Of a stretch of 64,000 nucleotides of DNA, positions 5,436 to 64,000 are shown in pieces (the first letter of the stretch is position 1; each line of letters starts with the position of its first letter). The DNA is taken from IMG/VR virus record IMGVR_UViG_3300033074_001354, positions 32,001-96,000 of that record; one strand, given 5' to 3'. The translations under genes and the position numbers were made by a program. The notes beneath the pieces are model-generated. The model searched no databases, was not told the origin of the DNA, and saw nothing but the letters and a program-made list of their open reading frames with translations. The DNA is from a virus. Its lineage: Duplodnaviria; Caudoviricetes.

Positions 5436-5714
5436 TCAGTCATTTGGCCCTCCACGTGCTTTAATTTCGTCCATTAGTTCTTTATGAGTGCTTTCATGTC
5501 CAATAATTTTAAAACCTTCCTTGCAATTCCACGTAACATCTTCGGGCGATTCTTCATGCCATTCATTAGGATTGTCCCATAACCTTATTTTTCCATCTCT
5601 ATAAACCCATAAGTCATGCATGAATTGGTTAAGCACAATATCTCCATTTTTAAGTTTAGGGACTAAATTATCTTCGTCGCTTAGGTTCATGGTTTCCTCT
5701 TTCCGCATTTGCAC
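5436..5714 (-). CDS. Hypothetical protein
   Basis: ORF in a dense small-gene cluster. Confidence 0.5.
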   Translation of the reverse strand: MQMRKEETMNLSDEDNLVPKLKNGDIVLNQFMHDLWVYRDGKIRLWDNPNEWHEESPEDVTWNCKEGFKIIGHESTHKELMDEIKARGGPND

Positions 5715-15753: not shown

Positions 15754-16855
15754 CTGCATCCACACTAAACGGTTTATAGAATTTTGGTTCAACCATATCC
15801 CACAATCTATCCTCAATAGACAACATGTTCAACACTAATGAAGAAACTCTTTCTCTTGCAGGATCAGCGCTCAAAAATTCACAACGAGATTTGCGATCAG
15901 GCAGTCCCAAGCACTGAAGATAGTATTTATTAGCTTCTTCCCTCAAAAATTGTCTTTGAGATTCCAATTTAGACTTAGTGCTGACAACGAACTGATAAAA
16001 CTCATCAGGAACATTTGTAATGATATCATCAATTGACTGGTTAGATTTCAAAGCCTCCCATATAGACCTATTGCTAACGCCAGTAACAATCTTATGGAGC
16101 CTAGTATACTCTGCATACTTTAGCTTTACACGCAGTCCAGTATCAAATCTTATGACAAAACCCTCGCCACCTTTGTACCTTACCTTATCACGAATATTGT
16201 TAAAATCAAACCCACTATACTGAGCAACTATAGGAAACTCATACTTGTCATGCATCATCTCAATATAATTTCTGCTGAGCTCCACGCCATTGTTGTTGGC
16301 ATAGGCAGCTAGTAACCACAGATCAGAAGCGCCTTTATAATCTACGACAATGCGATTCTCAGGGTATATGATCTCAACAAGAACTGTGACGCCATTGTAT
16401 GGATGCTCATTTAGAAGAGCATAATCTTCACAAAATGCAGGATACATATCATGCAGCATTGCTGTAGCTCTAAGTGCTTGTTCAGAGTTGAAACTGCCAC
16501 GAGTAGCTACGTAAGTCTTTCCTTGCCAACAATAAAGAATACCAAGGCTGCCATCAACCTTCTCGTATACATCAAATGACTTGTATGGAGGCAAAATTCC
16601 AAGTTGACTGTCTTCTCCATATTCCTCTATATTGTGAAACTTGGGAAATGGCCTAGCAACGATATCACCTTCAGAATTAACAATTAGTCCTCTCGCGTAT
16701 CGTAGTTCAGGATATTCATTCCAAGCTTGCGAGAACATCGCTAACGAAGTGTAGTTATACAGCCAAAGATCAAATTCTGGATGCTTGACTTCATCGAGCA
16801 ACTTCTTATACTTTAAAATGGCTCTATTGGGCAGCAAGCTTACAGGTTTTGGCAT
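15746..16855 (-). CDS. RNA ligase 1 (T4 Rnl1/RnlA-like)
   Basis: ARGLI, RPFPKFHN, EKVDGSL, ATRGSF, EII, EGFV, RVKLK motifs. Confidence 0.9.
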   Translation of the reverse strand: MPKPVSLLPNRAILKYKKLLDEVKHPEFDLWLYNYTSLAMFSQAWNEYPELRYARGLIVNSEGDIVARPFPKFHNIEEYGEDSQLGILPPYKSFDVYEKVDGSLGILYCWQGKTYVATRGSFNSEQALRATAMLHDMYPAFCEDYALLNEHPYNGVTVLVEIIYPENRIVVDYKGASDLWLLAAYANNNGVELSRNYIEMMHDKYEFPIVAQYSGFDFNNIRDKVRYKGGEGFVIRFDTGLRVKLKYAEYTRLHKIVTGVSNRSIWEALKSNQSIDDIITNVPDEFYQFVVSTKSKLESQRQFLREEANKYYLQCLGLPDRKSRCEFLSADPARERVSSLVLNMLSIEDRLWDMVEPKFYKPFSVDADA

Positions 16856-17616: not shown

Positions 17617-17915
17617 AACTTGATTAACTCATACTCCCAATTGCATGGACCAGGATGATCTTCATCAGAGTCTATAACAGCTTGAGCACGACAAGTTCTA
17701 CAGTATCTATGCAACTTGTAGTTCAAAGGAACTTTTTGATGATCATTCATACTGCCATACACAGAAGTATGAAGACAAGTCGGACAAATATGCATTTTCT
17801 TGCACTTGTCATTCTCATCTGGTATGTCAAACAAGAGAGCCCATTTTCCATCTCGCTCTTTGTGGCACCAGTGGCATATCGCCTTCGTTCCTTTAGACAT
17901 GCTTCTCCAATTCAT
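17613..17915 (-). CDS. Small Cys-rich protein
   Basis: CHWC, CPTC, CRTC. Confidence 0.5.
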   Translation of the reverse strand: MNWRSMSKGTKAICHWCHKERDGKWALLFDIPDENDKCKKMHICPTCLHTSVYGSMNDHQKVPLNYKLHRYCRTCRAQAVIDSDEDHPGPCNWEYELIKL

Positions 17916-17986
17916 TCCCCATGGAGGACTCGAACCTCCGCTCCTAGATCCAAAATCTAGTGGCTTACCAACTTGTCGAATGGGGA
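17915..17986 (-). tRNA. tRNA-Gln(TTG)
   Basis: Acceptor TCCCCAT/ATGGGGA, anticodon arm CTAGA-TTTTGGA-TCTAG, T arm GGAGG-TTCGAGT-CCTCC. Confidence 0.85.
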
Positions 17987-17993
17987 ATGTTAA

Positions 17994-18770: not shown

Positions 18771-18824
18771 ATTATCCTGCCTTTAATTTGTACTTTCTAT
18801 ATTTACAGGTTATTCTCACTAGTA

Positions 18825-18899
18825 TGGGCATGGCAGGATTTGAACCTGCGATCTCCGGGTTATGAGCCCATCGCTTTAACCAGGCTAAGCTACATGCCC
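18825..18899 (-). tRNA. tRNA with CAT anticodon (Met/fMet-like)
   Basis: Acceptor GGGCATG/CATGCCC, anticodon arm GGG-CTCATAA-CCC, T arm GCAGG-TTCAAAT-CCTGC. Confidence 0.85.
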
Positions 18900-18907
18900 A
18901 GGGCAAT

Positions 18908-36103: not shown

Positions 36104-38059
36104 TTAGGAATTGTTATGCAGAAGAGAAATTATGGTATCCTTCTGAAGCGCTTCAGGAGAAAGATCTAAATCTGCTTTTGCTTTAGATTTCACCAGAACC
36201 GCACCAGACAATTTGAGCACTTCAGAAAGTTTTACTGCATTTTCATAATAGCTAACCATAAAACTACGAATATGCTCAGACACTTCAGAGCCACCATAGG
36301 AGCTGTTACCCTTGGACGTATCAGTGTCCATAAAGTAGAACTTGCAATTGACTTTATTAATGACAAGCAGCCCAATAGTCTTCTGCCTGTCACCAATATT
36401 TGCATCAACACGAGCAATAACTTCATTTGGATCAAGCATAAAGTTCTTTTCGAACTTATTGCCAGACTTGTAAGAGCCAACAACAATTTTAAAAGGAACT
36501 TCCTTTTCATTGTTGTGGTAGTGGTTGAAGAAGTTCAGAGCCATGACAGCTGTTAGGTTGTCCTGTTTCTTAATACGGAACAATTCTGTAGCGCCATTAG
36601 GCATAGGCGCATCAGTCATGTCCCCAGAGAACAGTATACTGCAAGATTCGTCACGGTAGTCAGCGTCCCAACCAATTTTGGAGCCATTCTCATCTAACAA
36701 CGAAAGATCAAGATCTACTCTATCATCTTCTACTACACCATCCCCAGTATTATTCCAATGAACCCCTATAATCATGTCATCATCCACAGTAATGCAGCTA
36801 CCAGAAGGCACATTTCCAACAAACTGCTTCTCCGTAGAAGGCAGAGCATACTCAACACCTTCCGGGATATAAACTTTCATACCATGCAGATGCTTCAAAG
36901 ATTTGGCAATTTCCTTTAGCACATAATTAAACGCTAACTTGTGATCATTTACTTTGTTGACTTCTATGCTAGTTGCATACCCTTTTCCGTTACGAATACG
37001 ATACAGAATGGAAGAAGGATTAGATGCCCTGTACTTGAGAGAATATGCAAGACGAATCTTTCTGAAAATATTCGCAGATTTAAGAGCACTGTCTAGATCT
37101 TCTTGGATAGCTTTGAACCCTTTTTCAACAACTAGTCTTGTCACACTGTTCAAGAAGTCCTGCTTCATAGGCTCATGATTCTTTATGGCTAACTTGCGTA
37201 TTCTATTCACAACTTTCTTCATAGGTTTGCTAGTGCGCAAAGCCAGAAACATTGGTTTGAACCTATAGAAAGATTTCGATAGTTCACCGTATCCATACGA
37301 GCTGTGGTAACGAACAAATAAAGGCAGAATGATTCTTACATCAGCACCCTTCAAAGACTCAATTGTTGCACGATCTTTGATCAACAGTGTGTTCTTGTTA
37401 ACCTTATAGATGACATATCGCAAGAATTCGGCAGCATCCTTCGGAACAGAATTTGTGAAATCATACATAATACAACGAACTTCTTTATTGTTGATTTCTC
37501 CGATGTCGCTAGGATTAAATCCAGTGTACATTAAAAGTTCCATAACATCATCTCGAGTTTGAGCCGACATAGCAATACCAGAACTCAACAAATGAAACAC
37601 CTTCTTTTTAATCTCTTCCTTAGTCAACCCACATATAACAGTAATCGACATGTCTTTAATTCTAACACGAGGAACTTTAAGAGTTTCCATGGGTATGTAA
37701 ACTGTATCATGATCAAAAATATGAAATGCTTCAAATCCGTAAGTTGTGACATAATGAAACATCTGCTCTATAACCAATTCTTCCATGCTAGCTTCACAAA
37801 TCTTCTTCCAGGATTTGTGAAATGCACTATTTAACTTCTCACCATCCAGAAAAGTTGCATCTATTTCTTCTATTAGATCATGCACTCCTTGTGCGCCACA
37901 CAAACTATAGATCTCAGGGGAAAACATATAGCCACAAGCAAGAGTCTTCTTTAATTGTGCAGCATCAGGCTTATGCCTGAGTTTTGTATGCTCGGAAATA
38001 GGAACTGCGTTGAACAATCTGAGAAGAGCAGGAATGAAAGAAACAGAACTAGTTTTCAC
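36104..38059 (-). CDS. Large protein with helical N-terminal region and TerD-like C-terminal domain
   Basis: C-terminal W...RVDLDLS...FSGDMTDAP..GATE resembles the TerD signature; GTG start at 38059 follows RBS AGGAGACCC. Confidence 0.55.
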   Translation of the reverse strand: MKTSSVSFIPALLRLFNAVPISEHTKLRHKPDAAQLKKTLACGYMFSPEIYSLCGAQGVHDLIEEIDATFLDGEKLNSAFHKSWKKICEASMEELVIEQMFHYVTTYGFEAFHIFDHDTVYIPMETLKVPRVRIKDMSITVICGLTKEEIKKKVFHLLSSGIAMSAQTRDDVMELLMYTGFNPSDIGEINNKEVRCIMYDFTNSVPKDAAEFLRYVIYKVNKNTLLIKDRATIESLKGADVRIILPLFVRYHSSYGYGELSKSFYRFKPMFLALRTSKPMKKVVNRIRKLAIKNHEPMKQDFLNSVTRLVVEKGFKAIQEDLDSALKSANIFRKIRLAYSLKYRASNPSSILYRIRNGKGYATSIEVNKVNDHKLAFNYVLKEIAKSLKHLHGMKVYIPEGVEYALPSTEKQFVGNVPSGSCITVDDDMIIGVHWNNTGDGVVEDDRVDLDLSLLDENGSKIGWDADYRDESCSILFSGDMTDAPMPNGATELFRIKKQDNLTAVMALNFFNHYHNNEKEVPFKIVVGSYKSGNKFEKNFMLDPNEVIARVDANIGDRQKTIGLLVINKVNCKFYFMDTDTSKGNSSYGGSEVSEHIRSFMVSYYENAVKLSEVLKLSGAVLVKSKAKADLDLSPEALQKDTIISLLHNNS

Positions 38060-38206: not shown

Positions 38207-38230
38207 AGAGAAACCGTAGTTTACACTGCA
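38207..38230 (-). promoter_or_regulatory. Putative phage promoter TGCA-N12-GTTTCTCT
   Basis: One mismatch to consensus; immediately upstream of hairpin copy A. Confidence 0.55.
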
Positions 38231-45366: not shown

Positions 45367-45441
45367 TCAGGGTGGTAGGATTTGAACCTACGAGATCTCG
45401 CTCCCAAAGCGAGCGCTATGGCCAGCCTAAGCGACACCCTG
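45367..45441 (-). tRNA. tRNA-Pro(TGG)
   Basis: Acceptor CAGGGTG/CACCCTG, anticodon arm CTCGC-TTTGGGA-GCGAG, T arm GTAGG-TTCAAAT-CCTAC. Confidence 0.88.
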
Positions 45442-45575
45442 TGGCAATTAAAAAGAAACGCTACTATCTATTGGATCAAACAGGCTAGGACTTTTGTTTT
45501 ATATTATCAATATGCTTCTTCATTCTGGGGATTAGTATGACATCATAAAACTTCGTTGATTTTCCCTTTATGACA

Positions 45576-49421: not shown

Positions 49422-49460
49422 TGGGGTCTCCTATAAGTTAAGATCGACTTACGAGATGTC

Positions 49461-53030: not shown

Positions 53031-53047
53031 TTTCTCCTTAGGTTATA

Positions 53048-53119
53048 CAGGGGAGGCAGGATTCGAACCTACAACCAAGTGATTAACAATCACCTACTCT
53101 ACCATTGAGCTACTCCCCT
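53048..53119 (-). tRNA. tRNA-Asn(GTT)
   Basis: Acceptor AGGGGAG/CTCCCCT, D arm GCTC-AATGGTA-GAGT, anticodon arm GTGA-TTGTTAA-TCAC, T loop TTCGAAT. Confidence 0.85.
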
Positions 53120-53155
53120 ATGTGTAATAGTCAACGAGAGTAAAACAACTTTTCC

Positions 53156-54946: not shown

Positions 54947-54983
54947 ATCACTTACATAGAAACTTGAATCTATGCAGTGTCGT

Positions 54984-57321: not shown

Positions 57322-58086
57322 CTACTCCCAAGTTGCTATAATAGCAGAATAAAGTGACAAAGCCTTATACTCTTTATGCCCTACAACTTCTATTTTAACG
57401 CCATATTTCTCTATAGTTTCTTGTCTTTTACGTATAGACAAAGGAGTTTCATATCCTTTTACTTCAACGTATGTATTTCTGTTTATCAAAAAGAAATCAG
57501 GGCGATATCTATACCCTTCCAACTGGAAAGTTTTCTTCTCATAAGTGTATGGTTCTTTAATATAATTTAAATACCTAGCGTAGTTAGCTTCCCATCTTGA
57601 CCTAACAAAGTGCCCTATATCTTCTCTGTGGCCAGACTTACCACGACCCATCTTTGCATTATCAAACACACCGGAATCCCACATTTTCCTTGTCGCCACT
57701 CTATGTCTATCTTTTGATTCTTCAGACAACTTCCACTTCTTGCCTTTAACATTTTTATTGCCATCAGCATTATGGTTACCGATCTTTGCTAAAGAATATG
57801 TCTTCCGAGATTCCTCAGACAATATTCTACCAACGCAAAGTTTATTTCCTAACATCCTATCTCTTCTATATTCTAGTTCACCAGGCTTCCAATTTAATTT
57901 CATTCCTAGAGTTGTATGAGTTCCAAAGGCAGGATTATTAGAACCATTTTTATCTCTCAAAGATATCTTCTTGCCTTTATCAGTATGAGCAAAGAACTTG
58001 TGACCTCCCATACCTCCAGATTTTATTGCCTTACCACATACGTCACAGTTTGTCATACTGTGGCACTCATAGGAGTGAAATAACAC
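57322..58086 (-). CDS. Free-standing endonuclease (NUMOD3-like repeats + PD-(D/E)xK domain)
   Basis: LSEES repeats; RSRWE...A..L...YE...YRPDFFL...YVEVKG. Confidence 0.7.
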   Translation of the reverse strand: MLFHSYECHSMTNCDVCGKAIKSGGMGGHKFFAHTDKGKKISLRDKNGSNNPAFGTHTTLGMKLNWKPGELEYRRDRMLGNKLCVGRILSEESRKTYSLAKIGNHNADGNKNVKGKKWKLSEESKDRHRVATRKMWDSGVFDNAKMGRGKSGHREDIGHFVRSRWEANYARYLNYIKEPYTYEKKTFQLEGYRYRPDFFLINRNTYVEVKGYETPLSIRKRQETIEKYGVKIEVVGHKEYKALSLYSAIIATWE

Positions 58087-58970
58087 TTAGGTTGTCCTTT
58101 GCCAAATTTAGTTCTAAAATACTTGTTTGCCTCGCACATCGAGTGCTCGATATCACGAAGCACCAGACTGCCTTCACACATAGGGAAATACAACCCAATC
58201 TCATTAATATGTTCAACTTGCTTATCTCTCAAGTAAGTCAACTTCTCTTCTACTTCGGAAATCTTAATATCAGGTCCATAGATCCATTTAGCTCCTGCAT
58301 GACAGCCAGGGCCAACGTTCACGAAATCATTCTCTGTAAATGGTATCAATCTACCATTATGCTTTTCACTGTAGTATGTCAGATCACACCAAATCTCATA
58401 CGCTGTAAATTTACCAACCATGGGAATCTTCTGTAACATCCTGAACTGTTCTGCTGGTGTAGACAAAGAAGCAATATCCTGTATTTTGCAGTATTGATAC
58501 TCACCATCGCTAAGAAGATCTTCCCATACCTGTATAACTCTCTCAAACTTCTGATTGCCAGGATGTAATTTCTTGAGACGCATATTGCCTGGATGAACTA
58601 TATAAGCAGAAGTGAATATTCTGAACCCTTTACTCTTCAGAGCTCTAAAAAATTCCAATATACATTCAGTATCTGGCTTGCCATCCACAATACGCCGAGA
58701 TATATAGTCCCACGTTACAATCCTGTTCAACAATCTGTATGCCACTATAGCAGCAAATATCTCCTGAGATTTCCAGTTTTGATTAAGAATGTTATTAACC
58801 AAATAAACAGTGCCACGATCCAACCTTCGCATAACATTTGTAAACTTAAACTTTCTCAATATCTCATCATCGGTCCATGGAGCTGGTAATTTCTTTACGA
58901 ATCTATTTTCATAGATCTGATGCCTTTTACAAACAAATTTCCAAAACTCTGCTTCCATTTTAGTCATCAT
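58053..58970 (-). CDS. aGPT-Pplase1 / hmdU-DNA-kinase-helical-type DNA hypermodification protein
   Basis: R..I...R....PAPWTDD.IL..FKFTNV.R..DR.T, YR..N, FTSAY, G.F.AYEI..DL, GPG...G, IEH.MCE..KY. Confidence 0.8.
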   Translation of the reverse strand: MMTKMEAEFWKFVCKRHQIYENRFVKKLPAPWTDDEILRKFKFTNVMRRLDRGTVYLVNNILNQNWKSQEIFAAIVAYRLLNRIVTWDYISRRIVDGKPDTECILEFFRALKSKGFRIFTSAYIVHPGNMRLKKLHPGNQKFERVIQVWEDLLSDGEYQYCKIQDIASLSTPAEQFRMLQKIPMVGKFTAYEIWCDLTYYSEKHNGRLIPFTENDFVNVGPGCHAGAKWIYGPDIKISEVEEKLTYLRDKQVEHINEIGLYFPMCEGSLVLRDIEHSMCEANKYFRTKFGKGQPKCYFTPMSATV

Positions 58971-62968: not shown

Positions 62969-63364
62969 CTAATTACCATTGCTATGATAATTGTAATCAA
63001 TACTTTTATCAGCAATAGCTTTCTTTAAAGATTTTGAAAAAGATTCAAGATACTCGTACATACGAATAAACTGTGTCACGGATAATACAATATTGACACC
63101 AAACATTGAAACCTGCATATCCTGGCCTATAGTGCTAGAAGAAACAGCGGACTTATACTTAGACGACAACTCCTTGAAGAATTCAAAAAAAGATTCTACA
63201 CTCATCTTTATAAGTCGTATGTGCAGAGTAAGAAGAATCTTCTTTTCTTCAACGCTGTAAATAGCTTCTACTTTAAATGGCTCTAACATGCTTCTAACTC
63301 CTAAACAATATAATGTTTGAAATATGCCCTGCAAGAATTTGCAGTAACCCGAAGAGTATAACAC
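62969..63364 (-). CDS. Hypothetical protein (probable start MLEPF, behind AGGAG)
   Basis: ORF track; internal RBS near 63300. Confidence 0.5.
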   Translation of the reverse strand: MLYSSGYCKFLQGIFQTLYCLGVRSMLEPFKVEAIYSVEEKKILLTLHIRLIKMSVESFFEFFKELSSKYKSAVSSSTIGQDMQVSMFGVNIVLSVTQFIRMYEYLESFSKSLKKAIADKSIDYNYHSNGN

Positions 63365-63384
63365 ATCGGGGTCTCCTTATTAAT

Positions 63385-63520
63385 TGTTGGAACTAGAGGC
63401 TGATCTACCTACTGATCTATCCCCGCTAATACTTGAAGTATTCAACCTCAAGATCCCCAACCGAAGTCAGGTGGTGCAGGGAGTGGGACTTGAACCCACG
63501 ACACACCTTTCGTTCCAACA
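63385..63520 (-). ncRNA. Circularly permuted tRNA-like RNA (YrlA/Y-RNA-like architecture)
   Basis: T arm plus acceptor 3' strand plus ACCA come first (63472-63520); acceptor 5' strand plus D arm come later (63385-63426); ends pair TGTTGGAAC/GTTCCAACA. Confidence 0.75.
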
Positions 63521-63524
63521 CTAC

Positions 63525-63548
63525 ATAGAAACCTGAAGTTCTATTACA
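63525..63548 (-). promoter_or_regulatory. Putative phage promoter TGTA-N12-GTTTCTAT
   Basis: One mismatch to consensus; ends 4 nt before the permuted RNA. Confidence 0.6.
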
Positions 63549-63561
63549 TCAAGAGTATATA

Positions 63562-63596
63562 GTATACAAGCCTCCTACGCGAGGAGGCTTGTATAC
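63562..63596. terminator. Perfect 15-bp inverted repeat, probable terminator or insulator
   Basis: GTATACAAGCCTCCT-ACGCG-AGGAGGCTTGTATAC downstream of the lipoprotein gene; no clear U tract. Confidence 0.55.
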
Positions 63597-63653: not shown

Positions 63654-63932
63654 CTATGCATCTTCAGCTCTAGGGGATGAACCACCACATTGTGATTCTA
63701 TACGTCTCCATGCGCTTAAAGTGACTAACTGCATGTTACTTTGTGCGACATAGTCCGCTTTGCCTCCCTCTATTGGCAAAGGCACATCCTTGATGACTGT
63801 CCCTTTAGGGATCAAAACATAATCGTGTACGCCACCAACTACCACGACATCTGTCTTTTTATTGAATAGGGCACAGCCACTATTTACCAGAACCGTGCTT
63901 ATCAGCACGAGCATCCAAAAAGTCTTTCTCAT
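63654..63932 (-). CDS. Lipoprotein, possible o-spanin
   Basis: MRKTFWMLVLISTVLVNSGC lipobox; overlaps the end of an upstream coiled-coil ORF. Confidence 0.55.
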   Translation of the reverse strand: MRKTFWMLVLISTVLVNSGCALFNKKTDVVVVGGVHDYVLIPKGTVIKDVPLPIEGGKADYVAQSNMQLVTLSAWRRIESQCGGSSPRAEDA

Positions 63933-64000
63933 TGTCTTCCTTTGTAGCTTTATCCATATTGGACTGAGCAGCATCTTTCTTTCGTTGAGCTTCATCTTTC
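63880..64000 (-). CDS. 3' end of a coiled-coil ORF entering from beyond the window (possible i-spanin)
   Basis: Reads KDEAQRKKDAAQSNMDKATKEDNEKDFLDARADKHGSGK*; overlaps the lipoprotein start in another frame. Confidence 0.4.
   Translation of the reverse strand, partial: KDEAQRKKDAAQSNMDKATKEDNEKDFLDARADKHGSGK

What the first reader, a model, noticed from the sequence alone, without database searches (positions are those of the whole stretch)
63385..63520. Circularly permuted tRNA-like RNA with G3-U70, internal ACCA and its own promoter
Seen (minus strand): TGTTGGAAC-GAAAGGT-GTGTC-[T arm GTGGG TTCAAGT CCCAC]-TCCCTGC-ACCA; a 45-nt linker with two hairpins (CCTGAC-TTCG-GTTGGG; CTTGAGGT-TGAAT-ACTTCAAG); then GCGGGGA-TA-[D arm GATC AGTAGGTA GATC]-A-GCCT-CTA-GTTCCAACA. 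The 3' half of a tRNA precedes the 5' half, and the transcript ends pair (9 bp) where the anticodon loop should be. The acceptor has G3-U70 and A73. The promoter motif ends 4 nt upstream. Established: bacterial YrlA Y RNAs put the T arm before the D arm and replace the anticodon arm with a Ro60-binding stem (5' motif GNCGAAN0-1G; here AACGAAAG). Two-piece tmRNAs are also permuted, and G3-U70 is the alanine identity element. Inference: either a phage Y RNA or an anticodon-less two-piece RNA that could be alanylated after RNase P cleavage and 3' trimming (decoy or ribosome-rescue role).
Basis: partly seen in the sequence, partly recalled or inferred. Interest (0 to 1): 0.88.

Follow-up and report, generated by a model that had tools for sequence, protein, structure and literature searches.

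The report
Back-to-front tRNA look-alike in phage
An uncultured phage encodes a small RNA built like a complete tRNA with its two halves in swapped order and no anticodon, a design known from bacterial Y RNAs (YrlA); here it has no Ro60 partner gene nearby and carries an alanine-type, CCA-bearing acceptor end that the phage's real tRNA genes lack.

Summary
Minus strand 63520-63385 folds (MFE equals centroid, z -3.8) into a circularly permuted tRNA. It has 29 uninterrupted base pairs and every canonical tRNA tertiary nucleotide. The acceptor stem is 7 bp with G3-U70, A73 and an encoded CCA. A 45-nt two-hairpin linker caps it, and a 9-bp terminal stem replaces the anticodon arm.

The best Rfam match is YrlA at 30.7 bits, below the cut-off of 69. 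Genuine Ro60-adjacent phage YrlA-like RNAs that I fetched score the same (30-42 bits). tmRNA and tRNA detectors find nothing here.

The 134.7-kb record (73% complete) has no TROVE/Ro60 gene. The RNA also lacks YrlA's outer Ro60-binding helix. I found no orthologue, so covariation for this RNA could not be tested. Analogous permuted mimics recur in phage contigs, and 5 of 13 unbiased examples keep NCCA.

The "two-piece" idea has a published precedent: M. smegmatis YrlA is cut by RNase P and CCA is added.

Most likely this is a stand-alone YrlA-type tRNA mimic at the head of an operon, probably opened by RNase P. Alanylation is untested.

This scan has flagged the same kind of RNA many times on other DNA. 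I class it as a new variant of a known kind.

The parts
63525..63548 (-). Phage-specific promoter-like motif TGTA-N12-GTTTCTAT. Its conserved downstream block (GTAG)TGTTG runs into the first bases of the RNA.
   Evidence: 5 matches in the window against 0.1 expected; the same extended motif GTTTCTAT-N3-(G)TGTTGA occurs at about 9 minus-strand sites in the record, including the heads of the three 'handle' RNAs.
63385..63520 (-). Whole 136-nt permuted tRNA-like RNA.
   Evidence: structure; YrlA 30.7 bits, E 5.7e-6 for the genome; single copy in the record.
63512..63520 (-). 5' strand of the 9-bp terminal stem (UGUUGGAAC), followed by internal-loop GAA (63511-63509).
63483..63508 (-). Anticodon-stem 3' remnant AGGU (positions 40-43), variable loop GUGUC (44-48) and T arm GUGGG-UUCAAGU-CCCAC (49-65).
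   Evidence: G53-C61, U54-A58, U55, C56, G46 and C48 are all canonical.
63472..63482 (-). Acceptor 3' strand UCCCUGC (66-72) plus A73-C74-C75-A76.
   Evidence: The phage's four real tRNA genes lack an encoded CCA.
63427..63471 (-). 45-nt linker that caps the acceptor stem. Hairpin 1 is CCUGAC-UUCG-GUUGGG (63471-63456). Hairpin 2 is CUUGAGGU-UGAAU-ACUUCAAG (63452-63432). The tail is UAUUA.
   Evidence: Rfam's YrlA alignment treats it as a 51-nt insert in the acceptor loop.
63397..63426 (-). Acceptor 5' strand GCGGGGA (1-7; the predicted RNase P site lies 5' of 63426), U8 A9, D arm GAUC-AGUAGGUA-GAUC (10-25), A26, and anticodon-stem 5' remnant GCCU (27-30).
   Evidence: U8-A14, G15-C48, G18, G19, A21, C13-G22-G46 and A26-G44 are all present.
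63385..63396 (-). Internal-loop CUA and the 3' strand of the terminal stem (GUUCCAACA).
63364..63378 (-). Ribosome-binding site AAGGAGACCC and start codon ATG (63366-63364), directly after the RNA. It is unpaired in the fold.
   Evidence: the same RBS context follows handle RNAs b and c and one other gene.
63301..63366 (-). 21-codon small ORF. Its stop codon overlaps the Shine-Dalgarno sequence of the next gene.
   Evidence: sequence.
62969..63289 (-). First sizeable downstream gene (106 aa, unknown function; weak structural likeness to DUF6686).
63562..63596 (-). 15-bp hairpin after the upstream gene, a probable transcript end that isolates the RNA's promoter.
   Evidence: Sequence. The hairpin also appears as a perfect stem in chance Rfam alignments. 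It is not called by the terminator scan because it has no U run.

Best explanation
This is a real, single-copy phage gene for a non-decoding tRNA mimic of the YrlA type. A complete class-I tRNA body is written in the order T arm, acceptor, D arm. The transcript's two ends pair where the anticodon arm would be.

It is transcribed from a phage-specific promoter as the first element of an operon (small ORFs, then a helicase and a 5-hmdU DNA kinase). It folds on its own into the L-shape.

Because it has a tRNA-length 7-bp acceptor stem stacked on a canonical T arm, with an encoded ACCA, the host's RNase P most likely cuts 5' of G1 (63426). This is what happens to M. smegmatis YrlA. The cut would give two pieces held together by about 20 base pairs. 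The linker would then be nibbled back towards the CCA.

The product presents a tRNA elbow and an alanine-type acceptor end, with no anticodon, to tRNA-binding proteins. It would act in trans as a mimic (decoy or adaptor), not in decoding.

Shown here: the sequence, the fold, the tRNA invariants, the motif context, and the absence of Ro60, tmRNA features and the 'handle'. Inferred: transcription, RNase P cleavage, trimming, any charging, and the identity of the protein partner.
For: - Fold: it equals MFE and centroid, z -3.84, and is kept in the longer transcript with the RBS left free.
- tRNA nucleotides: all tertiary-interaction positions are canonical.
- YrlA match: YrlA is the top Rfam hit at 30.7 bits, E 5.7e-6 for the whole record. 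The alignment reproduces YrlA's helix, 3-nt internal loop and 4-bp stem arrangement.
- Genuine Ro60-adjacent phage YrlA-like RNAs in L067 score only 29.9-42.3 bits. One of them has the same G3-U70 / ACCA / UUCG-hairpin linker design.
- Published precedent for RNase P opening and CCA addition of a 7-bp-stem YrlA: PMC4201824 and 10.1101/312249.
- Class level: 19 permuted mimics from phage contigs show 133 of 133 acceptor cells paired, with 3-5 pair types per position. 5 of 13 mimics found without any CCA requirement keep NCCA.
- The phage's own four tRNA genes do not encode CCA, so the ACCA here is not a local gene habit.
- The promoter motif and RBS context are shared with other small-RNA heads in this phage.
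Against: - No orthologue was found anywhere: five viral-contig scans, one metagenome scan and the GenBank phage collection. Conservation and covariation of this particular RNA are therefore untested.
- There are no expression data.
- The hairpin that starts right after ACCA would hinder 3' exonucleases, so the CCA may never be exposed and the acceptor may stay capped.
- C2-G71 differs from the G2-C71 of typical tRNA-Ala.
- No partner protein is identified. The record has no TROVE gene, and the RNA lacks both the YrlA outer helix and the handle of the phage's other structured RNAs.
- Sub-threshold YrlA hits at E<=1 occur in 13 of 14 control genomes.
Confidence: 0.5

Rival explanations
1. It is a true Y RNA. 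It binds a Ro60/Rsr ring, either encoded by the host or in the missing 27% of the phage genome, through its terminal stem. It would then gate or tether that protein as YrlA does.
For: - YrlA is the best Rfam match, and this RNA scores like Ro60-adjacent phage YrlAs.
- The near-motif AACGAAAG resembles GNCGAAN0-1G.
- The record is only 73% complete.
- Ro60 occurs in some phages and in many bacteria (PMC4201824; PMC7824862).
Against: - There is no TROVE match in 134.7 kb. Published YrlAs lie within 4 kb of Ro60 on the same strand.
- The Rfam alignment covers model positions 13-96 only. The outer helix that carries the Ro60 motif (model 3-10) has no counterpart, and the promoter motif 4 nt upstream leaves no room for one.
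- The host is unknown.
Confidence: 0.17
2. It is a handle-less 'cargo' RNA of the phage's own RNA-protein system. That system is the 651-aa helical plus TerD-domain protein at 36104-38059, with its three handle RNAs at 38212-38075 and 54947-54890.
For: - In other phages, permuted tRNA mimics lie directly upstream of homologues of this protein on the same strand (L133, L162, L201). All real R1 hits in 676 kb of such loci are there.
- This RNA shares the promoter motif and the AAGGAGACCC ribosome-site context with the three handle RNAs.
Against: - In L133 and L201 the mimics sit inside the conserved handle (GC-ANA-6 bp-UCCU ... C-GCC). This RNA has none of it.
- It lies 25 kb from the protein gene.
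- The RBS motif also precedes an unrelated gene at 49432.
- Only the TerD domain of the protein finds a structural match. Ro60 did not appear in either fold search.
Confidence: 0.1
3. It is a cis-acting 5' leader. The tRNA-shaped, end-paired structure protects the downstream operon mRNA from 5'-end-dependent decay, or sets its processing through an RNase P cut. It would have no trans function.
For: - There is no terminator between the RNA and the RBS.
- The RBS stays unpaired in the fold.
- Other transcripts from the same promoter type also begin with a small 5'-terminal hairpin built on the conserved GUUG.
Against: A simple hairpin would be enough for protection. A full set of tRNA tertiary nucleotides, a 7-bp acceptor stem and an encoded ACCA are not needed for that role. 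Free-standing analogues lie in tRNA clusters and do not head mRNAs.
Confidence: 0.13
4. It is a two-piece, alanine-charged, anticodon-less acceptor RNA with a tmRNA-like or ribosome-directed role. A variant of this idea is a charged decoy for toxins that attack aminoacyl- or CCA-ends.
For: - G3-U70, A73, encoded CCA and a 7-bp stem.
- The gene order of acceptor piece, intervening segment and 5' piece is that of permuted tmRNA genes.
- The phage's own tRNAs lack an encoded CCA.
- The phage carries a T4 Rnl1-type tRNA-repair ligase, which hints at tRNA-directed conflict.
Against: - tmRNA_permuted scores 12.9 bits and tmRNA 14.8 bits, both matching only the T arm and ACCA.
- ARAGORN finds no tmRNA in the record.
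- The D arm is canonical rather than the tmRNA-type degenerate D loop.
- There are no pseudoknots and no tag frame. An ordinary SD-led ORF follows.
- The hairpin abutting the CCA may block its exposure.
- G3-U70 is seen in only 1 of 13 unbiased analogues.
Confidence: 0.07
5. It is a non-functional remnant, for example of a tandem tRNA duplication with its outer halves deleted, or a chance fold.
For: It is single copy, and no orthologue was found. Tandem paralogous tRNAs do imitate the permuted order (L048, L036, L083).
Against: - 29 of 29 stem pairs are intact, including a 9-bp stem between the transcript's ends that no tRNA ancestor would supply.
- All invariant nucleotides are kept.
- It has a precise promoter and RBS frame.
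- There are no flanking tRNA halves.
Confidence: 0.03

Closest known systems
YrlA (Y RNA-like A; Rfam RF02553), especially the Mycobacterium smegmatis form (Chen et al. 2014, PMC4201824; Wang et al. 2018, bioRxiv 10.1101/312249)
   Same: - The order is T arm, acceptor stem, D arm, enclosed by a stem formed from the RNA's two ends.
- All tRNA tertiary contacts are present and there is no anticodon loop.
- The arrangement of helix, 3-nt internal loop and 4-bp stem below the core matches.
- The acceptor stem is 7 bp, as in M. smegmatis YrlA, which RNase P opens in vivo and which then receives CCA.
- Ro60-adjacent phage examples (L067) score as low on the Rfam model as this RNA. One of them shares the G3-U70 / ACCA / hairpin-linker design.
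   Different: - There is no Ro60/TROVE gene in the record.
- The outer helix with the GNCGAAN0-1G motif is missing, and so is the V stem-loop.
- The full ACCA is genome-encoded, whereas M. smegmatis YrlA gains CA after cleavage.
- The cap is a 45-nt two-hairpin linker.
- The RNA has a promoter motif directly upstream and an RBS directly downstream.
- The Rfam score of 30.7 is below the cut-off of 69.
Two-piece (circularly permuted) tmRNA genes (Rfam RF04321, RF01849)
   Same: The piece ending in T arm, acceptor 3' strand and CCA comes first. An excised intervening segment follows, then the piece that starts with the acceptor 5' strand. It has G3-U70 alanine identity, and a long helix stands where the anticodon arm would be.
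   Different: It has no mRNA-like domain, no pseudoknots and no tag frame. Its D arm is canonical rather than the tmRNA D-loop. The Rfam models and ARAGORN do not recognise it.
Permuted tRNA genes of Cyanidioschyzon merolae and other algae (Soma et al. 2007, as discussed in 10.1101/312249)
   Same: The 3' half comes before the 5' half, joined by a linker across the acceptor end. The transcript ends pair below the core.
   Different: Those precursors keep a full anticodon stem-loop and are circularised by the splicing endonuclease and ligase to give decoding tRNAs. Here there is no anticodon loop and no such enzyme is known.
Handle-borne and free-standing permuted tRNA mimics of phages, noted repeatedly by this scan (for example e1-5950365, e1-5611271, e1-5761128) and seen here in L095, L075, L053, L133 and L201
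   Same: They share the permuted tRNA core. Many keep NCCA at the capped acceptor end. Some are alanine-type (L095, L067, L032), and some have long linkers (L075 with 70 nt, L067 with 34 nt).
   Different: None is an orthologue. This RNA lacks both the GC-ANA-stem-UCCU handle and the CAGCAA-type stem. It lies outside any tRNA cluster and heads an operon.

Membership tests
YrlA (RF02553) | Topology: T arm, acceptor-like stem and D arm enclosed by a stem formed from the 5' and 3' ends, with tRNA tertiary nucleotides. | tested here: met
YrlA (RF02553) | Reaches Rfam's gathering score (69 bits). | tested here: not met
   It scores 30.7 bits. However, Ro60-adjacent phage YrlA-like RNAs in L067 also score only 29.9-42.3 bits, so this criterion is weak for phages.
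YrlA (RF02553) | Encoded within about 4 kb of a Ro60/TROVE gene on the same strand. | tested here: not met
   No TROVE match in the 134,685-b record, which is 73% complete. Neighbouring genes are sugar enzymes, small ORFs, a helicase and an hmdU DNA kinase.
YrlA (RF02553) | GNCGAAN0-1G motif in the outer 5' strand (model positions 3-10). | tested here: inconclusive
   Model positions 1-12 and 97-114 are unmatched (consensus seen). A one-off copy, AACGAAAG, lies at nt 7-14, but in the inner helix and loop.
YrlA (RF02553) | Bound by Ro60/Rsr. | not testable with these tools
   Needs a pull-down or gel-shift experiment.
Two-piece tmRNA | Recognised by tmRNA models and ARAGORN. | tested here: not met
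   RF04321 scores 12.9 bits and RF00023 scores 14.8 bits against a cut-off of 47. ARAGORN with -m finds none in the record.
Two-piece tmRNA | G3-U70 acceptor with an encoded CCA, in permuted order with an intervening segment. | tested here: met
Two-piece tmRNA | mRNA-like domain: resume codon, tag frame and pseudoknots. | tested here: not met
   After the stem come an SD sequence and an ATG-led 21-codon ORF. ARAGORN reports no tag peptide.
Canonical tRNA (RF00005) | Contiguous cloverleaf with an anticodon stem-loop. | tested here: not met
   No tRNA hit at this site. The anticodon loop is replaced by a 9-bp stem.
Algal-type permuted tRNA gene | Complete anticodon arm recoverable after circularisation. 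| tested here: not met
   Only 4 bp of the anticodon stem remain, followed by a 3x3 loop and a 9-bp stem with no loop nucleotides.
Handle-and-cargo RNAs with a TerD-domain protein (a class proposed by this scan) | Conserved handle GC-ANA-(6-bp stem)-UCCU ... (stem)-C-GCC. | tested here: not met
   The handle is seen in three RNAs of this window and in L133 and L201. It is absent from this RNA.
Handle-and-cargo RNAs with a TerD-domain protein (a class proposed by this scan) | Lies directly upstream of the about 640-aa partner gene. | tested here: not met
   The partner gene is at 36104-38059 and this RNA is at 63385-63520.

The most novel reading that the evidence does not exclude
The phage makes a naturally split, anticodon-less tRNA. 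RNase P and 3' trimming would free the encoded CCA, and AlaRS would charge it through G3-U70 and A73. The resulting Ala-RNA would act on the ribosome as a tag-less, tmRNA-like acceptor, or would soak up host defence enzymes that attack tRNA CCA or aminoacyl ends.
Probability: 0.1. Interest if true: 0.85.

Novelty: new variant of a known kind. Interest (0 to 1): 0.5.

Why it matters
YrlA-type tRNA mimics are described as partners of Ro60, and what their tRNA-like domain does is still unknown. This is a clean example in a phage with no Ro60 gene in the 134.7-kb record and no Ro60-binding helix, yet with a perfect tRNA core, an alanine-type acceptor and an encoded CCA that the phage's own tRNA genes lack. 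Together with similar free-standing mimics in other phages, it suggests the tRNA-like module has a job of its own. That job could be to engage RNase P, AlaRS, the CCA-adding enzyme or tRNA-directed defence enzymes. The RNA is short and self-contained, which makes it a convenient substrate for testing these ideas.

Tried and rejected
- **Orthologue search, all negative.**
  - blastn of 321 nt against GenBank phages found nothing.
  - the 136-nt RNA at E<=5 matched only generic tRNA 3' halves.
  - a viral-contig pattern with a fixed Ala-type acceptor gave one tandem-tRNA false hit (L003).
  - a relaxed G3/U70 pattern gave 119 or more loci. They were tandem tRNAs plus non-orthologous mimics.
  - a junction-based pattern found class II tRNAs and sequences that look like tmRNA 3' ends.
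  - a metagenome pattern gave two false hits.
- **Synteny route.** A second contig that carries a 99%-identical copy of the 651-aa protein could therefore not be fetched.
- **Paralogues.** The single-sequence model R1 hits only itself in the record.
- **Shared handle with the phage's other RNAs.** Rejected.
- **AAGGAGACCC as an RNA-specific tail.** Rejected. It is an RBS context that also occurs before an unrelated gene.
- **Ro60-like fold of the 651-aa protein.** Foldseek and VIA-align on the full-length model returned only TerD (Z 9.0); Ro60 was not listed. For a 651-residue model this is inconclusive.
- **RtcB and CCA-adding enzyme in the record.** Both absent.
- **Plus-strand 50-codon ORF over the RNA (63384-63536).** Judged to be an antisense artefact of the tRNA-like sequence.
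- **In-silico re-permutation into an artificial tRNA for scoring.** Not done. I checked the invariant positions directly instead.

Full report
**Observation.** RNAfold gives one dominant structure, in which MFE and centroid are identical (-54.2 kcal/mol; z -3.84; none of 200 dinucleotide shuffles folds as well). The elements, in order, are:
- a 9-bp stem between the two ends;
- a 3x3 internal loop (GAA opposite CUA);
- a 4-bp remnant of the anticodon stem;
- a 5-nt variable loop;
- a 5-bp T arm with loop UUCAAGU;
- a 7-bp acceptor stem whose 3' strand is followed by ACCA;
- a 45-nt linker with two hairpins;
- U8 A9;
- a 4-bp D arm with loop AGUAGGUA;
- A26.

When the residues are numbered as in a tRNA, every tertiary-interaction position is canonical. 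These are U8-A14, G15-C48, G18/G19 opposite U55/C56, C13-G22-G46, A9 with U12-A23, A26-G44, U54-A58 and G53-C61. G3-U70 and A73 are as stated. The fold is unchanged when 100 nt of downstream sequence are added.

**Detectors.** ARAGORN and Rfam at gathering thresholds find only four ordinary tRNAs in the window (Gln, Met, Pro, Asn) and nothing at this site. With permissive thresholds the best family is YrlA: 30.7 bits against a cut-off of 69, and E 5.7e-6 for the whole record. The match covers model positions 13-96, with the linker treated as a 51-nt insert in the acceptor loop. tmRNA and tmRNA_permuted match only the T arm plus ACCA (14.8 and 12.9 bits). ARAGORN finds no tmRNA in the 134.7-kb record.

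**Context.** The window is part of an IMG/VR virus record of 134,685 bases, estimated 73% complete.
- *Promoter motif.* Four bases upstream of the RNA ends a motif, TGTA-N12-GTTTCTAT. This motif recurs on the coding strand: 5 matches in the window against 0.1 expected. In extended form, GTTTCTAT-N3-(G)TGTTGA, it occurs at about nine sites in the record. It also heads three other structured RNAs (38212-38075 and 54947-54890). A GTTTCTTT variant lies 10 nt before tRNA-Pro. The first six bases of the RNA (UGUUGG) belong to this conserved block. So the 3' strand of the terminal stem has been fitted to the start of the transcript.
- *Downstream.* Directly after the RNA come AUUAAU, the ribosome-binding site AAGGAGACCC and an ATG. 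There is no terminator. A 21-codon ORF follows, then a 106-aa protein of unknown function, a 185-aa protein, a helicase and a 5-hmdU DNA kinase.
- *Upstream.* A 15-bp hairpin lies behind a small lipoprotein-like gene and a block of sugar-metabolism genes.

The RNA is therefore the first element of a transcription unit, not a free-standing gene with its own terminator.

**Relatives.** I found no orthologue.
- GenBank phages gave nothing beyond generic tRNA 3' halves.
- Three viral-contig pattern scans and one metagenome scan gave only tandem tRNAs, class II tRNAs or non-orthologous mimics.
- The helicase has no relative above 38% identity among 5.8 billion proteins.
- A covariance model of the RNA (R1) hits only itself in the record.

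Covariation for this RNA therefore cannot be assessed. The case for function rests on its internal perfection, its frame of promoter motif and RBS, and its analogues.

**Analogues.** The scans did recover the wider class.
- *Acceptor complementarity.* Among 121 matches to a pattern that forces only G1-C72 and G3-U70, 12 had a fully complementary 7-bp acceptor, against about 0.9 expected.
- *Filtering.* R1 then found further examples. I removed hits that overlap ARAGORN tRNAs, because tandem paralogous tRNAs imitate the permuted order (L048, L036, L083). Nineteen permuted mimics remained.
- *Covariation in the class.* In these 19, all 133 acceptor cells pair, with 3-5 pair types per position.
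- *CCA and alanine identity.* Of the 13 that were found without any CCA or G-U requirement, 5 keep NCCA and 1 has G3-U70.
- *Range of examples.* The examples include:
  - a complete 88-kb phage (L075) with neither TROVE nor the TerD protein, carrying a 70-nt linker after ACCA;
  - short alanine-type forms in tRNA clusters (L095);
  - a 280-kb phage (L067) in which a Ro60 gene (TROVE plus vWA) is preceded by an array of YrlA-like RNAs.

  One of the L067 RNAs has G3-U70, ACCA and a UUCG hairpin in a 30-nt linker, the same design as here.
- *Rfam scores.* The Ro60-linked RNAs in L067 reach only 29.9-42.3 bits on Rfam's YrlA model. None of the mimics in ten loci reaches the cut-off. The low score here therefore does not separate this RNA from genuine phage YrlAs.

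**Partner.**
- *Ro60.* No TROVE domain is found in the record. The full YrlA consensus places the Ro60 motif (ggCgaAUG) in an outer helix at positions 3-10. This RNA has no counterpart to that helix, and no room for one behind the promoter motif. Its AACGAAAG lies in the inner helix and loop.
- *The TerD-domain protein.* The same phage encodes a 651-aa protein (36104-38059) of a very large, well-conserved family with no Pfam domain: more than 1600 homologues at 44-47% identity. Two 'handle' RNAs precede it. In homologous loci of other phages, permuted tRNA mimics lie just upstream on the same strand (L133, L162, L201). There, however, they are embedded in the conserved handle (GC-ANA-stem-UCCU ... 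C-GCC), which this RNA lacks.
- *Fold of that protein.* My AlphaFold model (pLDDT 73) matched only TerD structures (Z 9.0). Ro60 did not appear, which is inconclusive for a protein of this size.

**The CCA.** None of the phage's four genuine tRNA genes encodes CCA. No CCA-adding enzyme gene is found in the record. The mimic does encode A73-CCA at the exact position, a 1-in-64 coincidence for the CCA alone. Many analogues do the same. This argues that the CCA matters. It could matter as a recognition element in the capped form, or because it must be present once the acceptor end is opened. The phage also carries a T4 Rnl1-type RNA ligase, so conflicts over tRNA are part of its biology.

**Mechanism.** The published precedent is direct. 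M. smegmatis YrlA, the one YrlA with a 7-bp acceptor stem, is cut by RNase P in vivo and in vitro. It is then nibbled and given CCA, and its two halves stay together (PMC4201824; 10.1101/312249). The same authors describe most YrlAs as circularly permuted tRNAs with closed acceptor loops.

This RNA meets the same structural requirement, so I consider RNase P opening at 63426 likely. Exposure of the CCA is less certain, because a stable UUCG hairpin starts right after it. Alanylation is possible through G3-U70 and A73, although position 2-71 is C-G, and it is untested.

My best reading (0.5) is a stand-alone YrlA-type tRNA mimic that acts in trans on tRNA-binding proteins. The rivals are:
- a true Ro60-bound Y RNA (0.17);
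- a cis-acting leader (0.13);
- a handle-less cargo of the TerD-protein system (0.10);
- a charged tmRNA-like or decoy RNA (0.07);
- a remnant or chance fold (0.03).

**Comparison and novelty.** The RNA works like YrlA but fails three membership features: the Rfam cut-off, Ro60 adjacency and the outer helix. It is not a tmRNA, a tRNA or an algal-type permuted tRNA gene. Earlier notes of this scan record the same kind of RNA many times on other DNA, including alanine-type forms without Ro60. I confirmed such forms independently here. I rate it a new variant of a known kind. Interest is moderate. The concept is published and the class recurs, but a Ro60-less, CCA-encoding, alanine-type mimic in a phage whose own tRNA genes lack CCA is a good experimental handle on what the tRNA-like module does.

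Noticed in passing
window 17914-17987, 18824-18900, 45367-45441, 53047-53120 (minus): None of the phage's four genuine tRNA genes (Gln, Met, Pro, Asn) encodes the 3' CCA, and the record has no CCA-adding enzyme gene. They must rely on the host enzyme.
   Followed up: yes
window 45452-45459, 38207-38230, 54956-54963 and about 9 sites in the record: The promoter-like motif extends to GTTTCTAT-N3-(G)TGTTGA. Transcripts from it begin with a small 5'-terminal hairpin built on GUUG. A GTTTCTTT variant lies 10 nt before tRNA-Pro.
   Followed up: partly
window 63301-63366 (minus): A 21-codon ORF (MCYTLRVTANSCRAYFKHYIV) starts at the RBS right after the RNA. Its stop codon overlaps the Shine-Dalgarno sequence of the next gene, which suggests translational coupling. 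The alternative is a GTG start at 63364 giving a 131-aa protein.
   Followed up: partly
window 63654-63995 (minus) and 63562-63596: The upstream 113-aa ORF has a signal or lipobox-like N-terminus (LVNSGC). A perfect 15-bp hairpin without a U run follows it.
   Followed up: no
window 36104-38059 (minus): This 651-aa protein belongs to a very large family with no Pfam domain: more than 1600 homologues at 44-47% identity in phages, bacteria and archaeal bins. Its C-terminal domain is TerD-like (Z 9.0). It is far better conserved than the phage's helicase.
   Followed up: partly
window 16115-16699 (minus; G000:C1:48115-48699): A T4 Rnl1-type RNA ligase gene (PF09511, 74.6 bits) lies near tRNA-Gln and tRNA-Met. 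This implies tRNA-repair capacity.
   Followed up: no
L067:3100-4100 (minus) and L067:1699-3108: A 280-kb phage carries a Ro60 gene (TROVE plus vWA) preceded by an array of about six YrlA-like RNAs with different tRNA-like modules. Those that Rfam's YrlA model detects at all (three) score 30-42 bits, below its cut-off of 69, so Rfam under-detects phage Y RNAs.
   Followed up: partly
L111:3913-4204: A phage tRNA cluster contains an alpha-proteobacterial-type permuted tmRNA (RF01849, 134.8 bits). An alanine-type permuted tRNA mimic lies at 5466-5560 in the same cluster.
   Followed up: no
L201:2950-3320: Three handle RNAs lie in front of the TerD-protein gene. One carries a lone T arm. The other two carry complete permuted tRNA bodies, one with a closed acceptor hairpin and one with GCCA.
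   Followed up: partly
window 58053-58970 (minus); L253:760-5702: A 5-hmdU DNA kinase (PF18723, 207 bits) lies downstream of the RNA. A block of glycosyltransferases, a GDP-mannose dehydratase and a methyltransferase lies upstream. The RNA marks the boundary between these two modules.
   Followed up: no
L048, L036, L083: A methodological trap: tandem copies of paralogous tRNAs score as 'permuted tRNAs' with full acceptor complementarity. Hits must be checked against a tRNA finder.
   Followed up: yes
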